This document shows, piece after piece, positions 7,051-61,847 of a stretch of DNA of 64,000 nt (the first letter of the stretch is position 1; each line of letters opens with the position of its first letter). Where the stretch lies: positions 9,824-73,823 of the forward strand of contig JACRGC010000016.1 in assembly GCA_016212475.1 (NCBI GenBank). The letters run 5' to 3'. The notes under the pieces are model-generated. The model ran no database searches. It had not been told where the DNA came from and saw nothing but the letters and a program-made list of their open reading frames with translations. The position numbers were made by a program, and so were the translations under genes. This DNA is from Candidatus Micrarchaeota archaeon. Its GTDB lineage: Archaea; Micrarchaeota; Micrarchaeia; Norongarragalinales; SBBD01.

Positions 7051-7073
7051 TTAGATTCCTCAAGGTTCAATAA

Positions 7074-7204
7074 GCCCCCGGCGAGGATTGCACTCGCGAC
7101 CTTCTGCTCGCCTTGCCCCTTTCTTTCCAAAAGAAAGGTGCGATGGCACCGCGCCAAAGAAAAGGACGTACAAGGCAGACGCTCTGCTGCTGAGCTACAG
7201 AGGC
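7074..7204 (-). tRNA. tRNA-Thr(UGU) with a 60-nt intron at the canonical 37/38 position
   Basis: The minus strand reads GCCTCTG TA GCTC AGCAGCA GAGC G TCTGC CTTGTA [60-nt intron] A GCAGA AGGTC GCGAG TGCAATC CTCGC CGGGGGC. All four stems pair; the acceptor stem has two G.U pairs. The exons sum to 71 nt. No CCA is encoded. The intron 3' end (CAAGG) pairs with anticodon-loop CCUUG. Confidence 0.72.
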
Positions 7205-31901: not shown

Positions 31902-32021
31902 TCAAGGCTGCTTCCACTCAATCTCATATATGCAAATTCAAATAGAGGGGGATCAGGAAGACCTTCAAACTGAGGGGGATACTTCCCCCGCGGTTCAGGG
32001 TTGTTTCCACTCAATCTCATA
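31902..32021 (-). repeat. Direct duplication of the endA 3' end (27 nt, 93-nt offset) bracketing a 66-nt insert
   Basis: 31995-32021 and 31902-31928 match at 24 of 27 nt. Both encode YEIEWKQP-stop, and all 3 differences are synonymous. The insert carries GAGGGGGAT twice (31945, 31972) and the hairpin GGGGGA-TACT-TCCCCC (31974-31989). Confidence 0.8.
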
Positions 32022-33161
32022 GTATTCGTATTTGCTTTTCGGCAGCTCAATCCGTTTTACTCTGTAGTAGGTGATGCTGGTTTCCCTATCGCAAATTGCC
32101 AAAATTAAGTCCAATCCAAAGCTCTTTGCCTTCTGGATGGATTCTGCTAGTTCTTCGCCACCGATTTCCTCCTCTTCACTAAGAGCTAGCATCAAAAATT
32201 TGGGTTTATCCTCCTTTGGATTTTCAATTAGCCCTCCTTTCTTCCGGTGATACAAAACAAAATCCAATTCGCCCGCCTGCTGCTTTTTTTCCCCAGGAAT
32301 TGCCAAAATAAATGTCTTCTTGACTCCGTGCGCAACCCTAATTGCCCTGCTCCACTCCGAAATCAGCATTTTTGCATCCCTTGGAAAAACATGGATCACA
32401 TGCTTTGAGTGCATCCACTCCTCAATTGCAAGGGTTGGAGCGGCCCCCGGGAAATACAACCTGAAATGCGTTCCAAACTTAAATCCGCTTTTAACAACAA
32501 ACCCCCGAAGCCTCCAATCCTCATAAACCTCATAAAGCGCAAGGAAATCATTCCTTCGTTTCGAGCATTCCTTGATCAGCTTCTTATCCGAAATATTCGC
32601 CTTCATATTTCCATGCTTAATCAGGAATAGCGTCTCATACGCATCCAATTTCAAAAGCCTTCCATGCTTTTTTGCCTTATACGTTCCATGCTGGCCAAAC
32701 CAGGTTGCCTCATAAATCACTTTCCCTTCCTCATCATCATCAATTATGGACATCAAATCATCGCTGAAAAAAAGCGCCCTTGCCTTCACATCAATTGGCG
32801 CAAATTCCTTGTATGGGTATTTTATTACCGGCGATCTTCCATAGTTCTCTTTAGCTTCCTCAATTCCCCTTGCAATAATTCCCCTATCCCTCCAATCCCT
32901 ATAGCAAAAATAGCGCGCTAAAAATTTCTTATTATCAATGAATTGTCTGGCCACCATATTGAATGAAATTTCCTTCCCATTCTTTGTTACAGTAGCATTC
33001 CTAACATCCATCAAATAAAGCGCCTCTTCTGGCATTAGAATCAGCTGTGTTTTCTTGCCTTGGTATTCCTTCCCAAAAAAGCCCCGATCAAGCGCCTGCA
33101 CGGAAATTAGATCCCGAACAATTATGGATCCATCATTTTCCAATTCTAGTGTAACTGCCAT
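31995..33161 (-). CDS. endA: tRNA-splicing endonuclease, multi-unit single polypeptide
   Basis: The catalytic unit is YEDWRLRGFVVKSGFKFGTHFRLYFPG...HSKHVIHV...AHGVKKTF, carrying the Y/H/K triad. A degenerate N-terminal unit (YRDWRDRGIIARG) and an extra C-terminal unit flank it. The ATG at 33161 is preceded by GGAGGAG. Confidence 0.85.
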   Translation of the reverse strand: MAVTLELENDGSIIVRDLISVQALDRGFFGKEYQGKKTQLILMPEEALYLMDVRNATVTKNGKEISFNMVARQFIDNKKFLARYFCYRDWRDRGIIARGIEEAKENYGRSPVIKYPYKEFAPIDVKARALFFSDDLMSIIDDDEEGKVIYEATWFGQHGTYKAKKHGRLLKLDAYETLFLIKHGNMKANISDKKLIKECSKRRNDFLALYEVYEDWRLRGFVVKSGFKFGTHFRLYFPGAAPTLAIEEWMHSKHVIHVFPRDAKMLISEWSRAIRVAHGVKKTFILAIPGEKKQQAGELDFVLYHRKKGGLIENPKEDKPKFLMLALSEEEEIGGEELAESIQKAKSFGLDLILAICDRETSITYYRVKRIELPKSKYEYYEIEWKQP

Positions 33162-33308
33162 ATTGCAAATCTCCTCCAAGCTGCTTCCAAAGGGAGGCAA
33201 GTGCTTGTTTAAAGTTATAACTAGAATATGAATTAAATGCTAATAAACGCTTCGGGCAATCAAAACAGACTAGCGGTTTGGGTTCTAAATGCCTTCCTAA
33301 AAAAAGCT

Positions 33309-56330: not shown

Positions 56331-56419
56331 CCAATCATACTGCGCGCAAATTCGAATTCTTGGAATTTCATCACAACCTATTTAAACAGGAATCCGCATT
56401 AACTACTTCCGAATGCTTT

Positions 56420-57604
56420 ATGCAAACTAATCCTTTAGCGGATGGCACGAATCAAACGGGCTCTTATTCTAAAATTTTCCAGTCGGATTTCAAAAATCCA
56501 AAAACCCCGAATGCAATCCTTGTGCTAAAGGATGGATCCCATTTCCTTGGCGGGCAAATTGGGGCTGTTAAGGAAATCCTTGGCGAGCTCGTATTCAACA
56601 CCTCTATGGTCGGATACCAAGAAGCCCTAACGGATCCTTCCTATGCCGGGCAGATTTTGACCTTTTGCTATCCATTGATTGGCAATTATGCAACAAATCT
56701 TGATGACGCCGAATCCGAAAAAGTGCATGTTAGGGCGGCGGTAGTCCGAGAAAACTGTGAATCAGGAAAATTCTACCACTTCAAAGCAAAGCTTGGGCTA
56801 AGCGAATACCTAAAGGAAAACGATGTTCCGGGGATTTCAGGAGTCGATACCCGCTCAATTGTCAGGAAGGTGCGCGAATCGGGGGTCATGCCATCGATCC
56901 TTTCCCCGCTCGAACCCAATTTGTCCGAAAAGCAATTGCAGGAAAAAATCTCCGAGCTAAAAAGCAAAATATCCGGGTTCGATTACGGCTCCGTAAATTT
57001 TGTTTCGGAAGTCAGCATCAAGCAAAAGAAAATCTTCTCCCCAAAAAAAATCGACAAAAAAGTCGCGCTGATCGATTGCGGAGTAAAGCTAAATATAATC
57101 CGTGAACTAAATCTTAGGAACATCGAAGCAACTGCTTTTCCCTATGACATATCCGCCAACACAATCCTTAAGGGGGATTTTGACGGCGTTTTGATTTCAA
57201 ACGGGCCGGGGGATCCGGCGCTTATGAAGGAAACCATATCGACAACAAAAAAACTGATCCAAAGCCTTCCAACCCTTGGTATTTGCCTTGGCCATCAATT
57301 GATTGCACACGCACTTGGCGGAACAACCTACAAATTGAAATTCGGCCATCGTGGAAGCAACCATGCAGTTCTCAACCCGGAAACTGGGAAAATCTACATT
57401 ACAACACAAAACCATGGATACGCTGCAAAGGACATTCCGCAAAATTTGGCGCAAACCCTCTTCATCAACTGCAACGACAAGACAAACGAGGGCATACGCC
57501 ACAAAACATTGCCGGTGATTTCAGCCCAATTCCATCCCGAAGGGTCAAATGGGCCAAAGGATGCGAATTTCCTATTCGATGAGTTTTTGAAAATGATGAA
57601 ATAA
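56420..57604 (+). CDS. carA: Carbamoyl-phosphate synthase small (glutaminase) subunit
   Basis: GICLGHQL catalytic Cys, NHGYA and QFHPE. The N-terminal domain has LVLKDGSHFLG. Confidence 0.92.
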   Translation: MQTNPLADGTNQTGSYSKIFQSDFKNPKTPNAILVLKDGSHFLGGQIGAVKEILGELVFNTSMVGYQEALTDPSYAGQILTFCYPLIGNYATNLDDAESEKVHVRAAVVRENCESGKFYHFKAKLGLSEYLKENDVPGISGVDTRSIVRKVRESGVMPSILSPLEPNLSEKQLQEKISELKSKISGFDYGSVNFVSEVSIKQKKIFSPKKIDKKVALIDCGVKLNIIRELNLRNIEATAFPYDISANTILKGDFDGVLISNGPGDPALMKETISTTKKLIQSLPTLGICLGHQLIAHALGGTTYKLKFGHRGSNHAVLNPETGKIYITTQNHGYAAKDIPQNLAQTLFINCNDKTNEGIRHKTLPVISAQFHPEGSNGPKDANFLFDEFLKMMK

Positions 57605-57617
57605 GACTAGTGATTTT

Positions 57618-58664
57618 ATGAATATGGCGAATTTAGGAATTAAAAATGAAATCGGAGCACCCGAACACAGCCTCCGAAATCCTTATACCTTGTTTTCAAA
57701 CAAATTAATGCGTTTTCAAGAAATGGGGCAGGAAACCATGGAGTTGCATCTTTCAGACCTACCAGGGGAATTTATAGTAAAGCTTAGTGATCAAGGCAGA
57801 AGCTTGCTGTTTTTCGACCTTGATTCTAATCTAGCACCATCAAAATTAGGAATTTCAAGGTCATTTTTTTATCATCTAAAAAACAATCGGCATGGATTTC
57901 GGCTTTCTACACTTAAAAGATTTGCAGAATATAAAAAAATACCATTAAACGAATTCGAGCCCTTTGTTTCCTGTCTTATTTCTAATCGTGGTGGAAGGGT
58001 GTGTTTTATTTTTCCAATAAAAGAATCAGCATCCTTAGCAAGGCTTGTTGGGCACTGCTTTGGCGATGGTAATATAAGTTCAAAAAAGGGCGAATTTGAT
58101 TATGTCAATTGTGATTTGGGGCTAATTGATGAGGTAACCCGAGAAGTTAATTTTCTTTTCAATTCCAAGCCCACGTACAGTGGCCATAATCCGGATGGGT
58201 CCTATAAGATTACTTTTTCTAATTTGGTTGGAAAAATACTTGAGCTTGCAGGCGCTCCAAGGGGGGGCAAAGTTCATTATAAGGGTTCTTTGCCAAATTG
58301 GATAATGCATGGTTCGCTTGAAATAAAAAAAGCATTTCTTCAATCACTATTCGATGATGATGGCTCTGCACTATATTCCGAAAATTACAGGGCAAAAAAT
58401 GTAAACCTCCATTTTACCCGGGTGTTGGTTAATGACTCGTTTTTTGTTAATTATCTTCAAGACATTCGTGTTTTGCTTAATGCTTTTGGGATACGCTCAA
58501 CAAACCCCTATATTGCGCGGCGATATTTTGTTCAAAATTCCGAAAGGATAGTAAGGGGAATTTTGATTTCAAGAAAGTCCGGAATAACTGCCTTTCACGA
58601 CTCAATAAATTTTACCCAATTAATAAAAAAGAATAGGTTGGAACGGATCATTAAAAAGGGGTGA
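57618..58664 (+). mobile_element. Free-standing double-motif LAGLIDADG homing-endonuclease-like gene between carA and carB
   Basis: Two LAGLIDADG motifs ~100 aa apart: LARLVGHCFGDGNIS and KKAFLQSLFDDDGSA. N-terminal HTH-like region. It has its own ATG and stop, so it is not in frame with carA or carB and is not an intein. Visibly more A/T-rich than the car genes. Confidence 0.8.
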
Positions 58665-58668
58665 TAAT

Positions 58669-61600
58669 TTGCTAAAGGACAAAATCAAAAAAGTATTGGT
58701 AATAGGCAGCGGCCCCATAGTAATCGGTCAGGCAGCCGAACCCAAATAAGCTTGCTTATTTGGCGGAAATTCGACTACTCAGGGACGCAATGCTGCAAAG
58801 CGCTGAAGGAAGAAGGCATAGATATCATATTGGTAAACAGCAACCCCGCAACCATCCAAACGGATTTCGAATTTGCGGATAGGATTTACATAGAGCCCCT
58901 AACCGTTGAAACCATAACAAGAATAATTGAAATTGAAAAACCTCAGGCAGTAATTGCAACAATGGCCGGCCAAACCGGCCTTAATTTGGCAACAAAGCTA
59001 AAATCCACGTTTCAATTGCATGGCGTTGCCGTTCTTGGCACATCAATTGAAACTATCGAACTGGCTGAAGATCGCGAAAAGTTTGCCCAGCTTATGGAAA
59101 AAATAAATGAGCCTATTCCCAAAAGCATGCGTGCAACAAACCTTGAGGACGCAAAAAAAGCGCTTTCTTTGCTTGGGCTTCCATTGATCGTACGGGCGGA
59201 TTTTGCCCTTGGCGGCGCAGGCTCATCAATTGTAAGATTGGAGGAAAATTTCATTTCGGCTGTTGAAACCGCATTAAATTCTTCCGGGACAAGTTCATGC
59301 CTGATTGAAAAATCCGTTGAAGGCCTATCCGAACTCGAATACGAGGTCATTCGCGATTCAAATGACAATTGCATAACAATTTGCAACATGGAAAATATCG
59401 ACCCCATGGGCGTGCATACCGGCGAGAGCATTGTAGTTGCGCCCTCCCAAACCCTAACCGACAAGGAATACCACATGCTCCGTGCCGCCGCAATCCGCGT
59501 TATCCGCGCGCTTGATGTGAGGGGCGCTTGCAACATCCAATTCGCGCTTGATCAGCAAAACGGAAAATACTACATCATAGAAGTAAACCCAAGGACCTCC
59601 AGATCATCCGCGCTTGCCTCGAAGGCAACCGGCTACCCAATTGCTTGGGTTTCGACTAAAATCGCCCTTGGCTACCAATTGCATGAAATCCCAAACAAGA
59701 TCACGGGAAAATCAGCAGCATTTGAGCCTGCGCTTGATTATTGCGTTGTTAAGATGCCAAAATGGCCATTCGACAAGCTCTATTCGCAAAAAATACTTGG
59801 GACGCAGATGAAATCCACCGGCGAAGTGATGGCAATTGGCAGGACTTTCGAAGAGGCGCTCCAAAAAGCGATTCATTCCCTTGAGCTAAAGCAAAAAATA
59901 GAATTTGATTTCACATCCCAAACCGCAATCGAAAAATCCCTATTGCCAAATGAGCTGAGGCTGTTTGCAATAAAGGACATATTGCGCCAAAAAATGCTAA
60001 CCGTCGATGAAATTTCCCGCATCTCGAAAATCCACAAATGGTTCATAGCAAAAATCGATGGAATCGTTGCAATGGAATCGCAAATAGAAAAAATAGATGT
60101 AACCAATTCCAAAACAGCCCCAATTCTTCTTGAGGCAAAAAGAATGGGCTTTTCCGACAACCAAATTTCCTTCAAATCCGCCCTATCCAACGATGCAATT
60201 TCACATTTCAAGGCAAGGAATTCGATTGCCCCGACCTACAAAATGGTTGACACGTGCTCTGGCGAATTCGAAGCGCTTACCCCTTATTATTATTCCACAT
60301 TCGAGCAGGAGGACGAATCGCATCTTCTAAGGGGCTCTTCAAAAAAGAAAGTGGTCATACTTGGATCCGGGCCCATTCGGATCGGGCAGGGAATCGAATT
60401 TGACTATTGCACAGTCCACGCGGTCCTTGCGCTAAAAGAACTGGGGTACGAATCAATAATCATAAACAGCAACCCCGAAACCGTATCAACTGATTTTGAT
60501 GTCTCTTCAAAGCTTTATTTCGAGCCTTTAACTGCAGAAAATGTTTTGGATGTGATAAAAAAGGAAGGGGAAATAGAAGGGGTTGTGGTGCAATTCGGCG
60601 GGCAAACCTCCGTCAACCTTTCAATCCCTCTTGAAAACAACGGCGTAAAAATACTTGGCACCTCGGTTGCCTCAATTGACGCTTCCCAAAACCGCAAAAA
60701 ATTCAAAGCGCTGATGGGCAGGCTAAAAATTCCCCTGGTGGAAAGCGGGGTTGCATTCTCAAAAGAAGAAGCGCTTGAAATTGCAAGGTCGATTTCCTAT
60801 CCCCTCCTGATCCGGCCCTCGTACGTGCTTGGCGGAAGGGCAATGGAAATTGTCTACACGGAAAAGCAGCTCCTCAAAAAAATAGACGAGGCGATATTCA
60901 TTTCCGGCTCTTATGCGATCATCATGGATAGGTTCCTTGAGGATGCAGTTGAAGTGGATGTTGATGCCCTAAGCGATGGCGAAAAGGTAAAACTTGCCGG
61001 AATCATGGAGCAAATCGAGGAAGCCGGGATACATTCCGGCGATTCAAGCTGCGTGACTCCTGCAATTGGGTTTTCCGATATTGCAATTAAAAAAATCCGC
61101 GACTACACAAAAAGGATCCTCCTTGAGCTTCAAATAATTGGCCTAGCAAACATCCAAATGGCAATCAAGGGCGATGATGTGTATGTTTTGGAGGTAAATC
61201 CAAGGGCCAGCAGGACCGTTCCATACCTAAGCAAGGCAATGGGCGTTCCGATTGCAAAAATCGCCTCAGCTTTGCAGGTTGGGAAAAAATTAACCGATTA
61301 TTTCGATTCATTTGAAAAAGAACTGATACCAAAGCACGGCTATTTTGCAGTCAAATCGCCGGTTTTCCCATTCATCAAGTTCAGGGATGTTGATCCGATC
61401 CTATCCCCAGAAATGAAAAGCACCGGCGAAGTGATGGGGATTGCAAAAACCTTCGAGGAAGCCTACCTTAAGGCGCAACTAGCTGCCGGCAACAAATTCG
61501 GGAGCACGGTATTCCTTGGCTCTTGCGGCAAATGGAAAAAAATTCTTGCCGACAAGTTCAAGAAAGCAGGCATTCAAATATTTGATTCGGATAAGATTTC

Positions 61601-61847
61601 CGAAAAAGACGCCCTTTTGATGGTTAAGCAAAACAAAATCTCCTTCCTGATCGATGGGATCAAGGGATCCGCCAAATCGGAAGAGGAAATCCGGCCAACC
61701 GAAGCTATCCGCAAATCCGCAGTCCAGTTCAGGCTTCCGGTAATCAGCAGCTATTTTGCAGCCCTTAAAATTGCGGATTCGCTTGAAAAAACCAAAGGCA
61801 GGAACGGCAAATTGTTTGCGCCAGTTGCCTTAAACGAGCTTGCATGA
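58669..61847 (+). CDS. carB: Carbamoyl-phosphate synthase large subunit, reading frame interrupted by a 29-nt insert
   Basis: 58669-58740 encodes [23 protein letters not shown]. From 58770 onward, in a different frame, it encodes FDYSGTQCCKALKEEGIDIILVNSNPATIQTD... and the rest of a full two-lobe CarB. Joined, the two parts match the conserved CarB N-terminus. Confidence 0.88.
58741..58769 (+). other. 29-nt hairpin insert splitting carB (mini-intron, bypass element or inactivating insertion)
   Basis: The insert is CCCAAATAAGCTTGCTTATTTGGCGGAAA. It has a perfect 9-bp stem, CCAAATAAG/CTTATTTGG, with a CUUG loop. It carries an in-frame TAA at 58747-58749. Confidence 0.8.

What the first reader, a model, noticed from the sequence alone, without database searches (positions are those of the whole stretch)
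57618..58664. Free-standing LAGLIDADG endonuclease gene wedged between carA and carB, 76 nt upstream of the carB hairpin insert
carA ends at 57604 and carB starts at 58669. The whole gap is filled by a 348-aa ORF with two LAGLIDADG motifs and an N-terminal HTH-like region. The ORF has its own start and stop, so it is neither an intein nor intron-encoded. It is visibly more A/T-rich than the car genes. Free-standing homing endonucleases, best known from phage intronless homing, usually cut a conserved site in a neighbouring gene, and the host allele must be immune. The 29-nt insert disrupts one of the most conserved nucleotide stretches of carB right next door. It may therefore be the immunity determinant, or a co-mobile partner of the endonuclease. 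That link is speculative.
Basis: partly seen in the sequence, partly recalled or inferred. Interest (0 to 1): 0.65.

Follow-up and report, generated by a model that had tools for sequence, protein, structure and literature searches.

The report
Homing endonuclease plus carB mini-intron cassette
A selfish DNA-cutting enzyme gene sits between carA and carB of this tiny archaeon and always occurs with a 29-base spliceable insert in carB; the two probably spread as one mobile cassette, a likely route by which introns enter archaeal protein genes.

Summary
ORF 57618-58664 (348 aa) fills the carA-carB gap. It has low GC (37% against 45%) and models confidently as a two-motif LAGLIDADG endonuclease. 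Both catalytic Asp residues (D150, D248) are invariant in 13 homologs.

The speculative link to the carB insert is supported by comparison:
- All 21 loci with a homolog of this gene and a readable carB 5' end have a 19-42 nt insert at the same GQA(A/G)E|FDYSG junction. They span Micrarchaeota, Iainarchaeota, Woese/Nanoarchaeota and others.
- Of 30 carB-bearing genomes in the window's order, 3 have both features and 27 have neither, including sister taxa.
- The reverse does not hold. At least 73 metagenome contigs, mostly ammonia oxidisers, have the intron without the endonuclease.
- The insert is a bulge-helix-bulge splicing substrate with strong covariation, including between the exon Ala/Gly codon and the intron 3' end.
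- Five loci keep a truncated old carB start fused upstream of the endonuclease. It ends 1-9 codons before the intron site, which places the cut there.

The closest analogue is the phage T4 MobA/gene 60 bypass cassette.

The parts
56360..57604 (+). carA (carbamoyl-phosphate synthase small subunit). This is the usual, but not obligatory, left neighbour of the cassette.
   Evidence: Pfam CPSase_sm_chain 2e-46 and GATase 3e-48; TIGR01368 3.7e-127. In L180, L081 and L184 the endonuclease is not directly after carA.
57618..57737 (+). N-terminal leader of the endonuclease ORF (residues 1-40). It is unconserved and modelled as disordered. Its ATG lies 14 nt after the carA stop, behind GTGAT. In relatives this position holds a truncated old carB exon 1.
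   Evidence: pLDDT below 50 for residues 1-37. Alignment A1. Old exon 1 remnants in L009, L048, L052, P0003 and L184. No significant remnant is detectable in the window itself.
57738..58028 (+). Conserved N-terminal helical, HTH-like domain of the endonuclease (residues 41 to about 137), a presumed extra DNA-binding module.
   Evidence: Pfam HTH_19 weak hit at residues 75-112. Homologs carry HTH_3, HTH_24 or HTH_31 hits. Invariant YHLKN.RH motif. pLDDT above 90.
58029..58664 (+). Two-motif LAGLIDADG endonuclease core (residues 138-348). Catalytic D150 is at 58065-58067 and D248 at 58359-58361. The stop codon is TGA 58662-58664.
   Evidence: A1 invariant columns G149 D150 and D246 D247 D248 G249. 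Foldseek matches to PI-PfuI, I-Tsp061I, I-DmoI and PI-SceI. NCBIfam intein endonuclease region 2e-12.
58658..58671 (+). Shine-Dalgarno-like GGGGTGAT, embedded in the endonuclease 3' end, followed by the carB TTG start codon (58669).
   Evidence: Read from the sequence. The same GGGGTGAT precedes carB in L008, L009 and L010.
58669..58740 (+). carB exon 1 (24 codons, [24 protein letters not shown]). This is the copy that travels with the cassette. Its N-terminus differs from the xxWKG(R/K)K start of the same-genus genomes that lack the endonuclease.
   Evidence: Synonymous sites cluster among endonuclease-positive alleles (within 0.818 against between 0.774, permutation p=0.013).
58741..58769 (+). 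29-nt bulge-helix-bulge mini-intron. It has an AA^C bulge, a 10-bp hairpin CCAAATAAGC/GCTTATTTGG, CGGA pairing with the exon sequence GCCG, and an AA^T bulge. It carries an in-frame TAA and shifts the frame.
   Evidence: Covariation over 39 introns: 90.6% of cells paired against 65.9% in shuffles, 0 of 500 shuffles as high, slid controls 26-50%.
58770..61847 (+). carB exon 2 (FDYSGTQ... to the stop codon).
   Evidence: NF003671 and TIGR01369 at E=0. The spliced protein is 1049 aa.
31995..33200 (-). Multi-unit tRNA splicing endonuclease (EndA), the host enzyme presumed to excise the mini-intron.
   Evidence: Pfam tRNA_int_endo 1.2e-29 (two stretches) and tRNA_int_endo_N 7e-14 (two stretches).

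Best explanation
ORF 57618-58664 is an intact, probably active, free-standing LAGLIDADG homing endonuclease with an N-terminal HTH-like DNA-binding domain. It forms one mobile cassette with the carB exon 1 copy that follows it (58669-58740) and the 29-nt bulge-helix-bulge mini-intron (58741-58769).

Proposed mechanism:
1. The enzyme cuts uninterrupted carB DNA at or a few bases from the highly conserved [10 protein letters not shown] coding junction.
2. The break is resected and repaired from a cassette-bearing allele. This copies the intron, exon 1 and the endonuclease gene together, because they lie within about 1.1 kb.
3. In the new host the intron splits the recognition site, so the chromosome is immune.
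4. The host tRNA-splicing endonuclease (EndA, 31995-33200) and the RtcB ligase remove the intron from the mRNA, so CarB is still made.
5. The endonuclease is translated from the former carB start region, just after carA. carB is translated from a Shine-Dalgarno sequence inside the endonuclease 3' end.

Shown here:
- the gene, its fold, its catalytic residues and purifying selection in the family;
- the one-way linkage of endonuclease to intron;
- presence/absence differences between sister taxa;
- old exon 1 footprints;
- intron structure with covariation;
- presence of the EndA and RtcB genes.

Inferred: the cleavage site, immunity conferred by the intron, splicing in this organism, and gain rather than loss in any given lineage.
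For: **1. Real endonuclease.**
- The model has pLDDT 88 and matches PI-PfuI, I-Tsp061I, I-DmoI and PI-SceI.
- D150 and D248 are invariant in 13 homologs.
- dN/dS is 0.10-0.20 in the four pairs below 0.2, 0.22 in a fifth (L046/L104), and dS is saturated in the rest.

**2. One-way linkage.**
- All 21 loci with the endonuclease and a readable carB 5' end have an insert at the same junction. These are the window, L008, L009, L010, L044, L046-L056, L081, L104, L180, L181, L182 and L184.
- In the window's order, 30 of 61 genomes have carB. Three (G000, G315, G412) have both endonuclease and intron. The 27 others, including 6 of the same genus, show an unbroken carB N-terminus; 12 of them were fetched and show carA directly followed by intron-less carB.

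**3. Scattered on the host tree.**
- Seven endonuclease-positive rows need 6-7 changes on the carA plus carB tree.
- L182(+) is sister to G147(-), L008(+) to G172(-), and G412(+) to G018(-).
- The filled-versus-empty comparison of L182 and G147 shows the endonuclease replacing a 117-nt spacer and the intron appearing 75 nt downstream.

**4. Footprints of insertion into carB.**
- In G412 the endonuclease N-terminus is [15 protein letters not shown]. This is 40 of 45 nt identical to the carB start of its endonuclease-free genus-mate G018. G412's working exon 1 has a different start.
- Similar truncated old exon 1 copies occur in L048, L052, P0003 and L184. They end 1-9 codons before the intron site.
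- In L184 the two copies differ at most synonymous sites, so they have different origins.

**5. The intron is a splicing substrate.**
- 90.6% of cells pair, and 0 of 500 shuffles reach that value.
- The exon codon covaries with the intron 3' end: GCCG with CGGN, GGCG with CG(C/T)N, and in L055/L056 a 1-nt shifted intron with CTGA:TCAG.
- EndA and RtcB genes are present.

**6. Consistent side evidence.**
- No uninterrupted target-like site exists elsewhere in the genome except the diverged second-half motif GQGIEFDY.
- Introns without the endonuclease are fixed in ammonia oxidisers (73 evaluable contigs). This fits immune alleles that offer no site to home into.
- L056 has a frameshifted endonuclease with the intron kept.
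- L101 has the intron but no endonuclease, and is closest to the endonuclease-positive L049.

**7. Known analogue.** The MobA/gene 60 cassette has the same logic and the same replacement-copy feature.
Against: - There is no biochemical evidence of cleavage or of its site.
- Endonuclease identity falls roughly in step with host divergence: 58-60% within the genus-level clade, 55% within the family and about 50% across families. Old vertical descent with repeated loss is therefore not excluded.
- No clear co-conversion tract was found in exon 2. The exon 1 signals are modest: 75 nt in one trio, and p=0.013.
- If the break is exactly at the intron site, intron-only conversions should arise. None was seen among the 27 cassette-free Micrarchaeota genomes.
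- The window's own leader shows no significant exon 1 remnant.
- The window protein falls just under the Pfam cut-off.
Confidence: 0.62

Rival explanations
1. The endonuclease homes to the region just upstream of carB (the carA-carB spacer or the carB start), and its own insertion destroys that site. The intron is only a hitch-hiker, dragged along by co-conversion because it lies 76 nt away. It is not the immunity determinant.
For: In the closest filled/empty pair (L182 and G147) the endonuclease exactly replaces the spacer between the carA stop and the carB ATG. Ordinary homing endonuclease logic makes the insertion itself disrupt the target.
Against: - The left neighbour varies: carA, TauE, unknown genes or an extra ORF.
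- Spacers are not conserved across phyla, whereas the GQA(A/G)E|FDYSG site is.
- Old exon 1 footprints end 1-9 codons before the intron site, not at the carB start.
- A mere hitch-hiker should sometimes be missing, yet 21 of 21 endonuclease-positive loci carry it.
- In the MobA precedent the distal insert, not the local polymorphisms, blocks cleavage.
Confidence: 0.17
2. The protein is a domesticated LAGLIDADG/HTH protein serving the host. It could be a regulator of carAB like WhiA, or a helper (maturase-like) for splicing the carB mini-intron. On this reading it is kept by host selection rather than by mobility.
For: - The position next to carB is fixed over deep divergence.
- Selection is purifying (dN/dS 0.10-0.20).
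- An HTH-like domain is present.
- Foldseek also matches WhiA and the bI3 maturase.
- Strict co-occurrence with the intron would fit a splicing helper.
Against: - Both catalytic Asp residues are invariant, unlike WhiA.
- The gene is absent from 6 same-genus species and from sister taxa that keep carAB.
- At least 73 contigs carry similar introns with no such gene, so no helper is needed.
- GC3 is low, at 32% against about 50%.
- L056 carries a frameshifted copy.
Confidence: 0.1
3. The gene is an inactive relic of an old invasion, an intact-looking ORF that no longer cuts or moves. The cassette in this genome is simply inherited.
For: - Endonuclease identity to relatives roughly tracks host divergence.
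- The leader shows no recognisable exon 1 remnant, which suggests some age.
- The homing-cycle model predicts such stages.
Against: - The ORF is full length with all 65 invariant family positions of alignment A1 kept, including the catalytic residues.
- The model is confident.
- Selection in the family is purifying.
- Composition is still strongly deviant.
Confidence: 0.06

Closest known systems
Phage T4-type MobA / gene 60 bypass cassette (Bonocora et al. 2011 PNAS, as described in bioRxiv 10.1101/2022.08.31.505936 and PMC2988022)
   Same: - A free-standing homing endonuclease is inserted in a conserved essential gene.
- Immediately downstream lies a short untranslated insert that interrupts a conserved coding stretch and protects the carrier from its own nuclease.
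- The element brings its own replacement copy of the host segment it displaces (HomR there, carB exon 1 here).
- The insert is found in every genome with the nuclease and in some that have lost it.
   Different: - The nuclease is LAGLIDADG plus HTH, not HNH.
- The hosts are cellular archaeal chromosomes, not phages.
- The insert is removed from the RNA by the host tRNA-splicing machinery, not skipped by the ribosome.
- The host gene is not split into two polypeptides.
- Nothing has been tested biochemically here.
Collaborative / trans homing of an ORF-less group I intron with a free-standing endonuclease (F-CphI with the cyanophage psbA intron; T4 mobE with the nrdB intron; PMC2988022, PMC2790892, PMC6083498)
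   Same: The endonuclease gene lies outside but next to an intron that carries no ORF. It targets the intron insertion site of intron-less alleles, and the two move together.
   Different: The intron here is a 19-42 nt protein-spliced bulge-helix-bulge intron with no ribozyme. The setting is archaeal cellular genomes. An exon copy is carried between the endonuclease and the intron.
Archaeal intron-encoded LAGLIDADG endonucleases (I-DmoI, I-Tsp061I, I-PorI) in rRNA bulge-helix-bulge introns
   Same: The fold is the same (Foldseek hits 2dch and the I-DmoI entries). They also associate with introns cut by the tRNA splicing endonuclease.
   Different: In those, the ORF lies inside the intron and the host gene is an rRNA. 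Here the ORF is 76 nt upstream of a 29-nt intron in a protein-coding gene, so the membership feature 'ORF within intron' was tested and not met.
cbf5 pre-mRNA bulge-helix-bulge intron of Crenarchaeota (Yokobori et al. 2009, PMC2738675)
   Same: It is a short intron in an archaeal protein-coding gene, removed by the tRNA splicing endonuclease.
   Different: No endonuclease gene is described with it in that paper's title and abstract, which is all I read. It is in a different gene and lineage. My two full-text searches found no paper on a carB intron.

Membership tests
LAGLIDADG homing endonuclease (single-chain, two-motif) | Two LAGLIDADG motifs, each ending in a catalytic acidic residue | tested here: met
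   LVGHCFGDG (D150) and LQSLFDDDG (D248). Both are invariant in 13 homologs.
LAGLIDADG homing endonuclease (single-chain, two-motif) | Pseudo-dimeric alpha-beta-beta-alpha-beta-beta-alpha fold | tested here: met
   AlphaFold pLDDT 88, pTM 0.83. Foldseek probability 1.00 to PI-PfuI, I-Tsp061I, I-DmoI, PI-SceI and TliVMA.
LAGLIDADG homing endonuclease (single-chain, two-motif) | Profile match above the curated threshold | tested here: inconclusive
   Pfam LAGLIDADG_3 scores 20.1 bits against a cut-off of 22.5. Homologs carry PF14528. NCBIfam intein endonuclease region matches at 2e-12. The PDB sequence search found nothing.
LAGLIDADG homing endonuclease (single-chain, two-motif) | Site-specific double-strand cleavage of an allele that lacks the element | not testable with these tools
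   Needs expression and a cleavage assay.
LAGLIDADG homing endonuclease (single-chain, two-motif) | Sporadic distribution at a fixed genomic site | tested here: met
   2 of 401 genomes in the phylum sample. 3 of 30 carB-bearing genomes in the order. 6-7 changes on the host-gene tree. The gene is always immediately upstream of carB.
Endonuclease plus protective-insert cassette (MobA/gene 60 type; collaborative homing) | The endonuclease gene lies outside but adjacent to a short insert that interrupts a conserved coding site | tested here: met
   The endonuclease stop is at 58664 and the insert at 58741-58769, inside [10 protein letters not shown].
Endonuclease plus protective-insert cassette (MobA/gene 60 type; collaborative homing) | The endonuclease never occurs without the insert, while the insert may persist without the endonuclease | tested here: met
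   21 of 21 endonuclease-positive loci have the insert. At least 73 contigs have the insert with no room for an endonuclease gene.
Endonuclease plus protective-insert cassette (MobA/gene 60 type; collaborative homing) | The insert is removed without harm to the gene product | tested here: inconclusive
   Bulge-helix-bulge structure with covariation, and EndA and RtcB genes present.
Endonuclease plus protective-insert cassette (MobA/gene 60 type; collaborative homing) | The element carries a replacement copy of the displaced host segment | tested here: met
   A truncated old exon 1 lies upstream of the endonuclease in L009/G412, L048, L052, P0003 and L184, while a complete exon 1 follows it. 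This is not detectable in the window itself.
Endonuclease plus protective-insert cassette (MobA/gene 60 type; collaborative homing) | The nuclease cuts the insert-less allele and the insert blocks cutting | not testable with these tools
   Inference only.
Intron-encoded archaeal homing endonuclease | The ORF is located inside the intron | tested here: not met
   The intron is 29 nt. The ORF ends 76 nt upstream.
Intein | Hint splicing domain, in frame within a host protein | tested here: not met
   No Hint or intein splicing domain hit. The ORF has its own start and stop.
Domesticated LAGLIDADG (WhiA-like) | Loss of catalytic acidic residues and uniform vertical conservation | tested here: not met
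   Catalytic Asp residues are invariant. Distribution is patchy.

The most novel reading that the evidence does not exclude
Free-standing LAGLIDADG endonucleases paired with a bulge-helix-bulge mini-intron form a general archaeal class of mobile cassette that creates introns in protein-coding genes. On this reading the carB intron fixed in ammonia-oxidising archaea is the immune relic of such an invasion. The same process would act on other conserved genes: rtcB in this very genome carries a similar 32-nt insert.
Probability: 0.4. Interest if true: 0.85.

Novelty: new variant of a known kind. Interest (0 to 1): 0.74.

Why it matters
Protein-coding introns of the tRNA type were, in the papers I could search, on record only for cbf5, and their origin is unexplained. 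This locus offers a concrete and testable mechanism. A homing endonuclease would drive a host-spliced mini-intron, and a replacement exon, into the most conserved stretch of an essential gene, with the intron serving as the immunity device.

- It would extend the nuclease-plus-protective-insert logic, known from T4-like phages, to archaeal chromosomes and to a different removal mechanism.
- It would explain why genome annotation pipelines call carB broken or truncated in these genomes.
- It points to a family of long-site nucleases with a predictable target.

Tried and rejected
- **G042 and G147.** In the phylum pattern scan, a hairpin-bearing match in G042 looked like an intron without the endonuclease. 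It lies at the end of an unrelated gene, not in carB. The G147 match is on another contig than its carB.
- **Upstream copy reaching into exon 2.** I suspected the upstream carB remnant extends into exon 2 ('PLDTGH' against 'EFDYSG' in the Woese-type leaders). Shuffle controls give no significant support beyond K(V)LV(L/I)GSG, so I dropped it.
- **Co-conversion tract in exon 2.** Neither G412 against G018 nor L182 against G147 and G315 shows one. Only exon 1 shows a reversal.
- **Window leader 'EIGAPE' as a decayed 'VIGQAAE'.** Not significant, and the alignment suggests another register.
- **Whether the whole HTH-LAGLIDADG family is carB-linked.** It is not. There are 112 representative clusters at E<=1e-30, and P0160 sits beside unrelated genes.
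- **Ribosomal bypass or read-through of the insert.** Rejected. Insert lengths range from 19 to 42 nt, there are in-frame stops and no matched take-off and landing codons, and the covariation fits a splicing substrate.
- **PDB search by sequence.** No hits.
Full report
**1. The observation**

- The window has carA at 56360-57604 and a 348-aa ORF at 57618-58664.
- carB starts at TTG 58669. Its frame breaks after GQAAE at a 29-nt insert (58741-58769) and resumes with FDYSG at 58770.
- The ORF carries two LAGLIDADG motifs. D150 is encoded at 58065-58067 and D248 at 58359-58361.
- The Pfam match is just under threshold (LAGLIDADG_3, 20.1 against 22.5 bits). NCBIfam matches the endonuclease part of intein-containing RtcB at 2e-12.
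- An AlphaFold model built on 13 homologs is confident (pLDDT 88, pTM 0.83).
  - Residues 1-37 are disordered.
  - A helical N-terminal domain is followed by two alpha/beta LAGLIDADG half-domains.
- Foldseek places the model with PI-PfuI, the TliVMA and PI-SceI intein endonucleases, and the archaeal intron enzymes I-Tsp061I and I-DmoI.
- GC is 37.2% (GC3 32%) against 44.5% and 45.6% (GC3 about 50%) for carA and carB. That is in the lowest 3.2% of equal-size windows.

**2. The organism and its splicing machinery**

- The genome is 1.37 Mb in 17 contigs. The one named close homolog of the endonuclease comes from Micrarchaeota, a DPANN lineage.
- The window holds an intron-bearing tRNA at 7073-7204, minus strand (Rfam).
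- It also holds a multi-unit tRNA splicing endonuclease at 31995-33200, minus strand.
- RtcB is present elsewhere in the genome.

**3. Linkage of endonuclease and insert**

Close homologs:
- Homologs at 46-60% identity were looked up on four contigs, and all lie directly upstream of carB.
- Each of those carB genes has a 30-nt insert at the same place as the window's. The hairpin covaries and the tail CGGNAA is conserved.

Species representatives:
- A scan of species-representative genomes found 13 more loci with 31-55% identical homologs. They come from Iainarchaeota, Woesearchaeota/Nanoarchaeota and a bin labelled Methanosarcinales.
- All 13 sit upstream of carB, and all have an insert of 20-42 nt at GQA(A/G)E|FDYSG.

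Total:
- With further contigs, 21 of 21 loci with a readable carB 5' end carry the insert.
- The left neighbour is usually carA. It can also be a TauE gene (L184), an extra ORF (L009) or unrelated genes (L180, L081). The constant partner is therefore carB, not carA.

The window's own order:
- 30 of 61 genomes have carB.
- G000, G315 and G412 have both the endonuclease and the insert.
- The other 27 show an unbroken carB N-terminus, including six species of the window's genus; the 12 that were fetched have carA directly followed by uninterrupted carB.

**4. The reverse does not hold**

It gave more than 120 contigs, of which 80 were fetched.
- In 73 of the 80, carA ends only 19-227 nt before the insert, so there is no room for an endonuclease gene. 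Only two carry one.
- Most have one recurring 21-22 nt intron type. For the single contig checked (L075), the carA protein is 95-97% identical to Nitrosopumilus proteins.
- L101 is closest to the endonuclease-positive L049 among the endonuclease-positive loci (73% nt in carB) but lacks the endonuclease.
- L056 keeps the intron next to a frameshifted endonuclease.

The association is therefore asymmetric: the endonuclease implies the intron, but not the reverse. This is what one expects if the intron makes the allele immune. Populations where the intron is fixed offer no target, so the nuclease gene decays and disappears.

**5. The insert is a splicing substrate**

All inserts fit the tRNA-type bulge-helix-bulge layout, read 5' to 3':
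- Four exon bases (GCCG or GGCG).
- A three-base bulge, AA^N.
- An inner hairpin.
- Four intron bases pairing back to the exon.
- A bulge, NA^T.

Cutting after the second bulge base gives exactly GAR|TTC.

On 39 distinct introns:
- 90.6% of cells pair, against 65.9% in shuffles. None of 500 shuffles is as high, and slid controls give 26-50%.
- All five inner pairs show double changes.
- The exon Ala/Gly codon covaries with the intron 3' end (8 GC-to-CG swaps).

In L055 and L056 the intron sits one base further downstream, and the pairing is CTGA:TCAG.

No convincing outer helix was seen, so this is a relaxed motif.

**6. Evidence that the unit moves, and where it inserts**

The host tree:
- On a carA plus carB tree, the seven Micrarchaeota-type endonuclease-positive rows need 6-7 changes of state.
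- Positive and negative genomes are sisters: L182 with G147, L008 with G172, G412 with G018.

The filled site L182 against the empty site G147 (82-84% nt identity in the flanks):
- The endonuclease replaces a 117-nt spacer.
- A 34-nt intron appears 75 nt downstream.
- The 75-nt exon 1 between them is the only segment where L182 is closer to another endonuclease-positive genome (G315, 0.80) than to its sister (0.72).

Exon 1 across alleles:
- Over 8 positive and 11 negative alleles that, with two single-residue exceptions (L008, G145), encode [10 protein letters not shown], synonymous sites cluster by cassette status (0.818 against 0.774, permutation p=0.013).

The most telling point is five loci that keep a truncated old carB start fused to, or just upstream of, the endonuclease:
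- G412/L009 reads [15 protein letters not shown]|SEG. This is 40 of 45 nt identical to the carB start of its endonuclease-free genus-mate G018 ([15 protein letters not shown]...). G412's working exon 1 begins differently, with MSIPKIPNMRK....
- L048 and L052 read KPKKVLVLGSGS|.
- P0003 reads ...VIGSGPVVIGQA|DD.
- L184 reads KKVLLLGSGALKIG|TG. Its two exon 1 copies differ at most synonymous sites, so they have different origins.

From these footprints:
- The left junction varies from 1 to 9 codons before the intron site.
- The right end of the foreign DNA is the intron itself.
- This is the footprint expected from a break at or near the [10 protein letters not shown] junction, variable resection, and repair from a donor that supplies the endonuclease gene, a fresh exon 1 and the intron.

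In the window itself no remnant is statistically detectable. However, its exon 1 (LLKDKIKK...) differs from the xxWKG(R/K)K start shared by its genus-mates.

**7. State of the gene**

- In the four pairs below 0.2, dN/dS is 0.10-0.20; a fifth pair gives 0.22 and the rest have saturated dS.
- Both catalytic Asp residues and 63 other positions are invariant.
- The genome has no other uninterrupted target-like site. The only near match is the diverged internal repeat GQGIEFDY of carB.
- The endonuclease ATG lies 14 nt after the carA stop, behind GTGAT.
- carB is served by GGGGTGAT inside the endonuclease 3' end. The same arrangement is seen in L008, L009 and L010.
- In G315 and L180 the endonuclease frame even runs into exon 1 and stops in the intron.

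**8. Comparison with known systems**

The nearest described system is the MobA/gene 60 cassette of T4-like phages:
- It has a free-standing nuclease and a replacement copy of the displaced host segment (HomR).
- Its 50-nt insert protects against the element's own nuclease.
- That insert is present in every genome with the nuclease and in some that have lost it.

Collaborative or trans homing of ORF-less group I introns with neighbouring free-standing nucleases follows the same idea.

The differences here are the nuclease family, cellular archaeal hosts, and removal of the insert by the host tRNA-splicing enzymes.

Two full-text searches found no paper describing a carB intron or such a cassette in archaea. 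cbf5 is the published protein-coding precedent (PMC2738675).

Earlier notes of this scan reached similar readings for other genomes and for the insert in this window. I tested their claims independently and add three things: the one-way nature of the linkage, the old-exon footprints, and the sister-taxon filled/empty comparison.

**9. Weak points**

- Nothing biochemical has been done, and no RNA data could be reached.
- Endonuclease divergence roughly follows host divergence, so long vertical persistence with repeated loss is not excluded.
- Exon 2 shows no conversion tract.
- The broader HTH-LAGLIDADG family (112 clusters at E<=1e-30) is not all carB-linked.

I put about 0.62 on the full cut-and-immunity mechanism. 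I put well over 0.9 on 'real LAGLIDADG homing endonuclease gene forming a co-inherited unit with the carB mini-intron'.

Noticed in passing
G000:C17:50332-51668 (outside the window; locus L185): rtcB, the RNA ligase needed for bulge-helix-bulge splicing, is itself broken inside GGVGY|DINCGVR. The insert is about 32 nt (ACGTTTAATTGAGTTTCAAATAAACGGACTAA) with an 11-bp hairpin and an in-frame stop, and looks like a second protein-coding mini-intron. No homolog of the carB-linked endonuclease lies next to it. Earlier scan notes report the same in other genomes.
   Followed up: partly
G000:C14:128955-129858 (outside the window; L058 4899-5858, minus strand): A second free-standing LAGLIDADG ORF (Pfam LAGLIDADG_3 3.6e-11; motifs LTDGHLAG and AFSCEGS) sits at the very end of the contig, next to what reads like a tRNA-derived stretch. 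Its target and context are unknown.
   Followed up: partly
window 7073-7204 (-): Rfam finds a 132-nt tRNA (46.9 bits) that ARAGORN misses. It is presumably a tRNA gene with a long or non-canonical intron.
   Followed up: no
window 31995-33200 (-): A 400-aa tRNA splicing endonuclease with two catalytic-domain stretches and two N-domain stretches in one polypeptide. I did not test which EndA type it is.
   Followed up: partly
L009 5474-6004 (genome G412): An extra 176-aa ORF with no Pfam match lies between carA and the old carB start fused to the endonuclease. It is absent from the genus-mate G018, so it may be a second insertion at the same spot.
   Followed up: partly
L056 3001-3887: The endonuclease homolog in a bin labelled Methanosarcinales is split by a frameshift (two overlapping tblastn segments). 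The 20-nt carB intron, shifted 1 nt downstream with CTGA:TCAG pairing, is intact. This looks like a decaying endonuclease stage.
   Followed up: partly
L184 1735-2490: A TauE-family membrane protein gene sits between carA and the endonuclease cassette in one contig, so carA-carB adjacency is not universal in cassette hosts.
   Followed up: no
G000:C12 and C7 (one search places): Five further LAGLIDADG-like matches lie inside very long open frames (968-1848 aa). They are presumably inteins in large proteins of this small genome.
   Followed up: no
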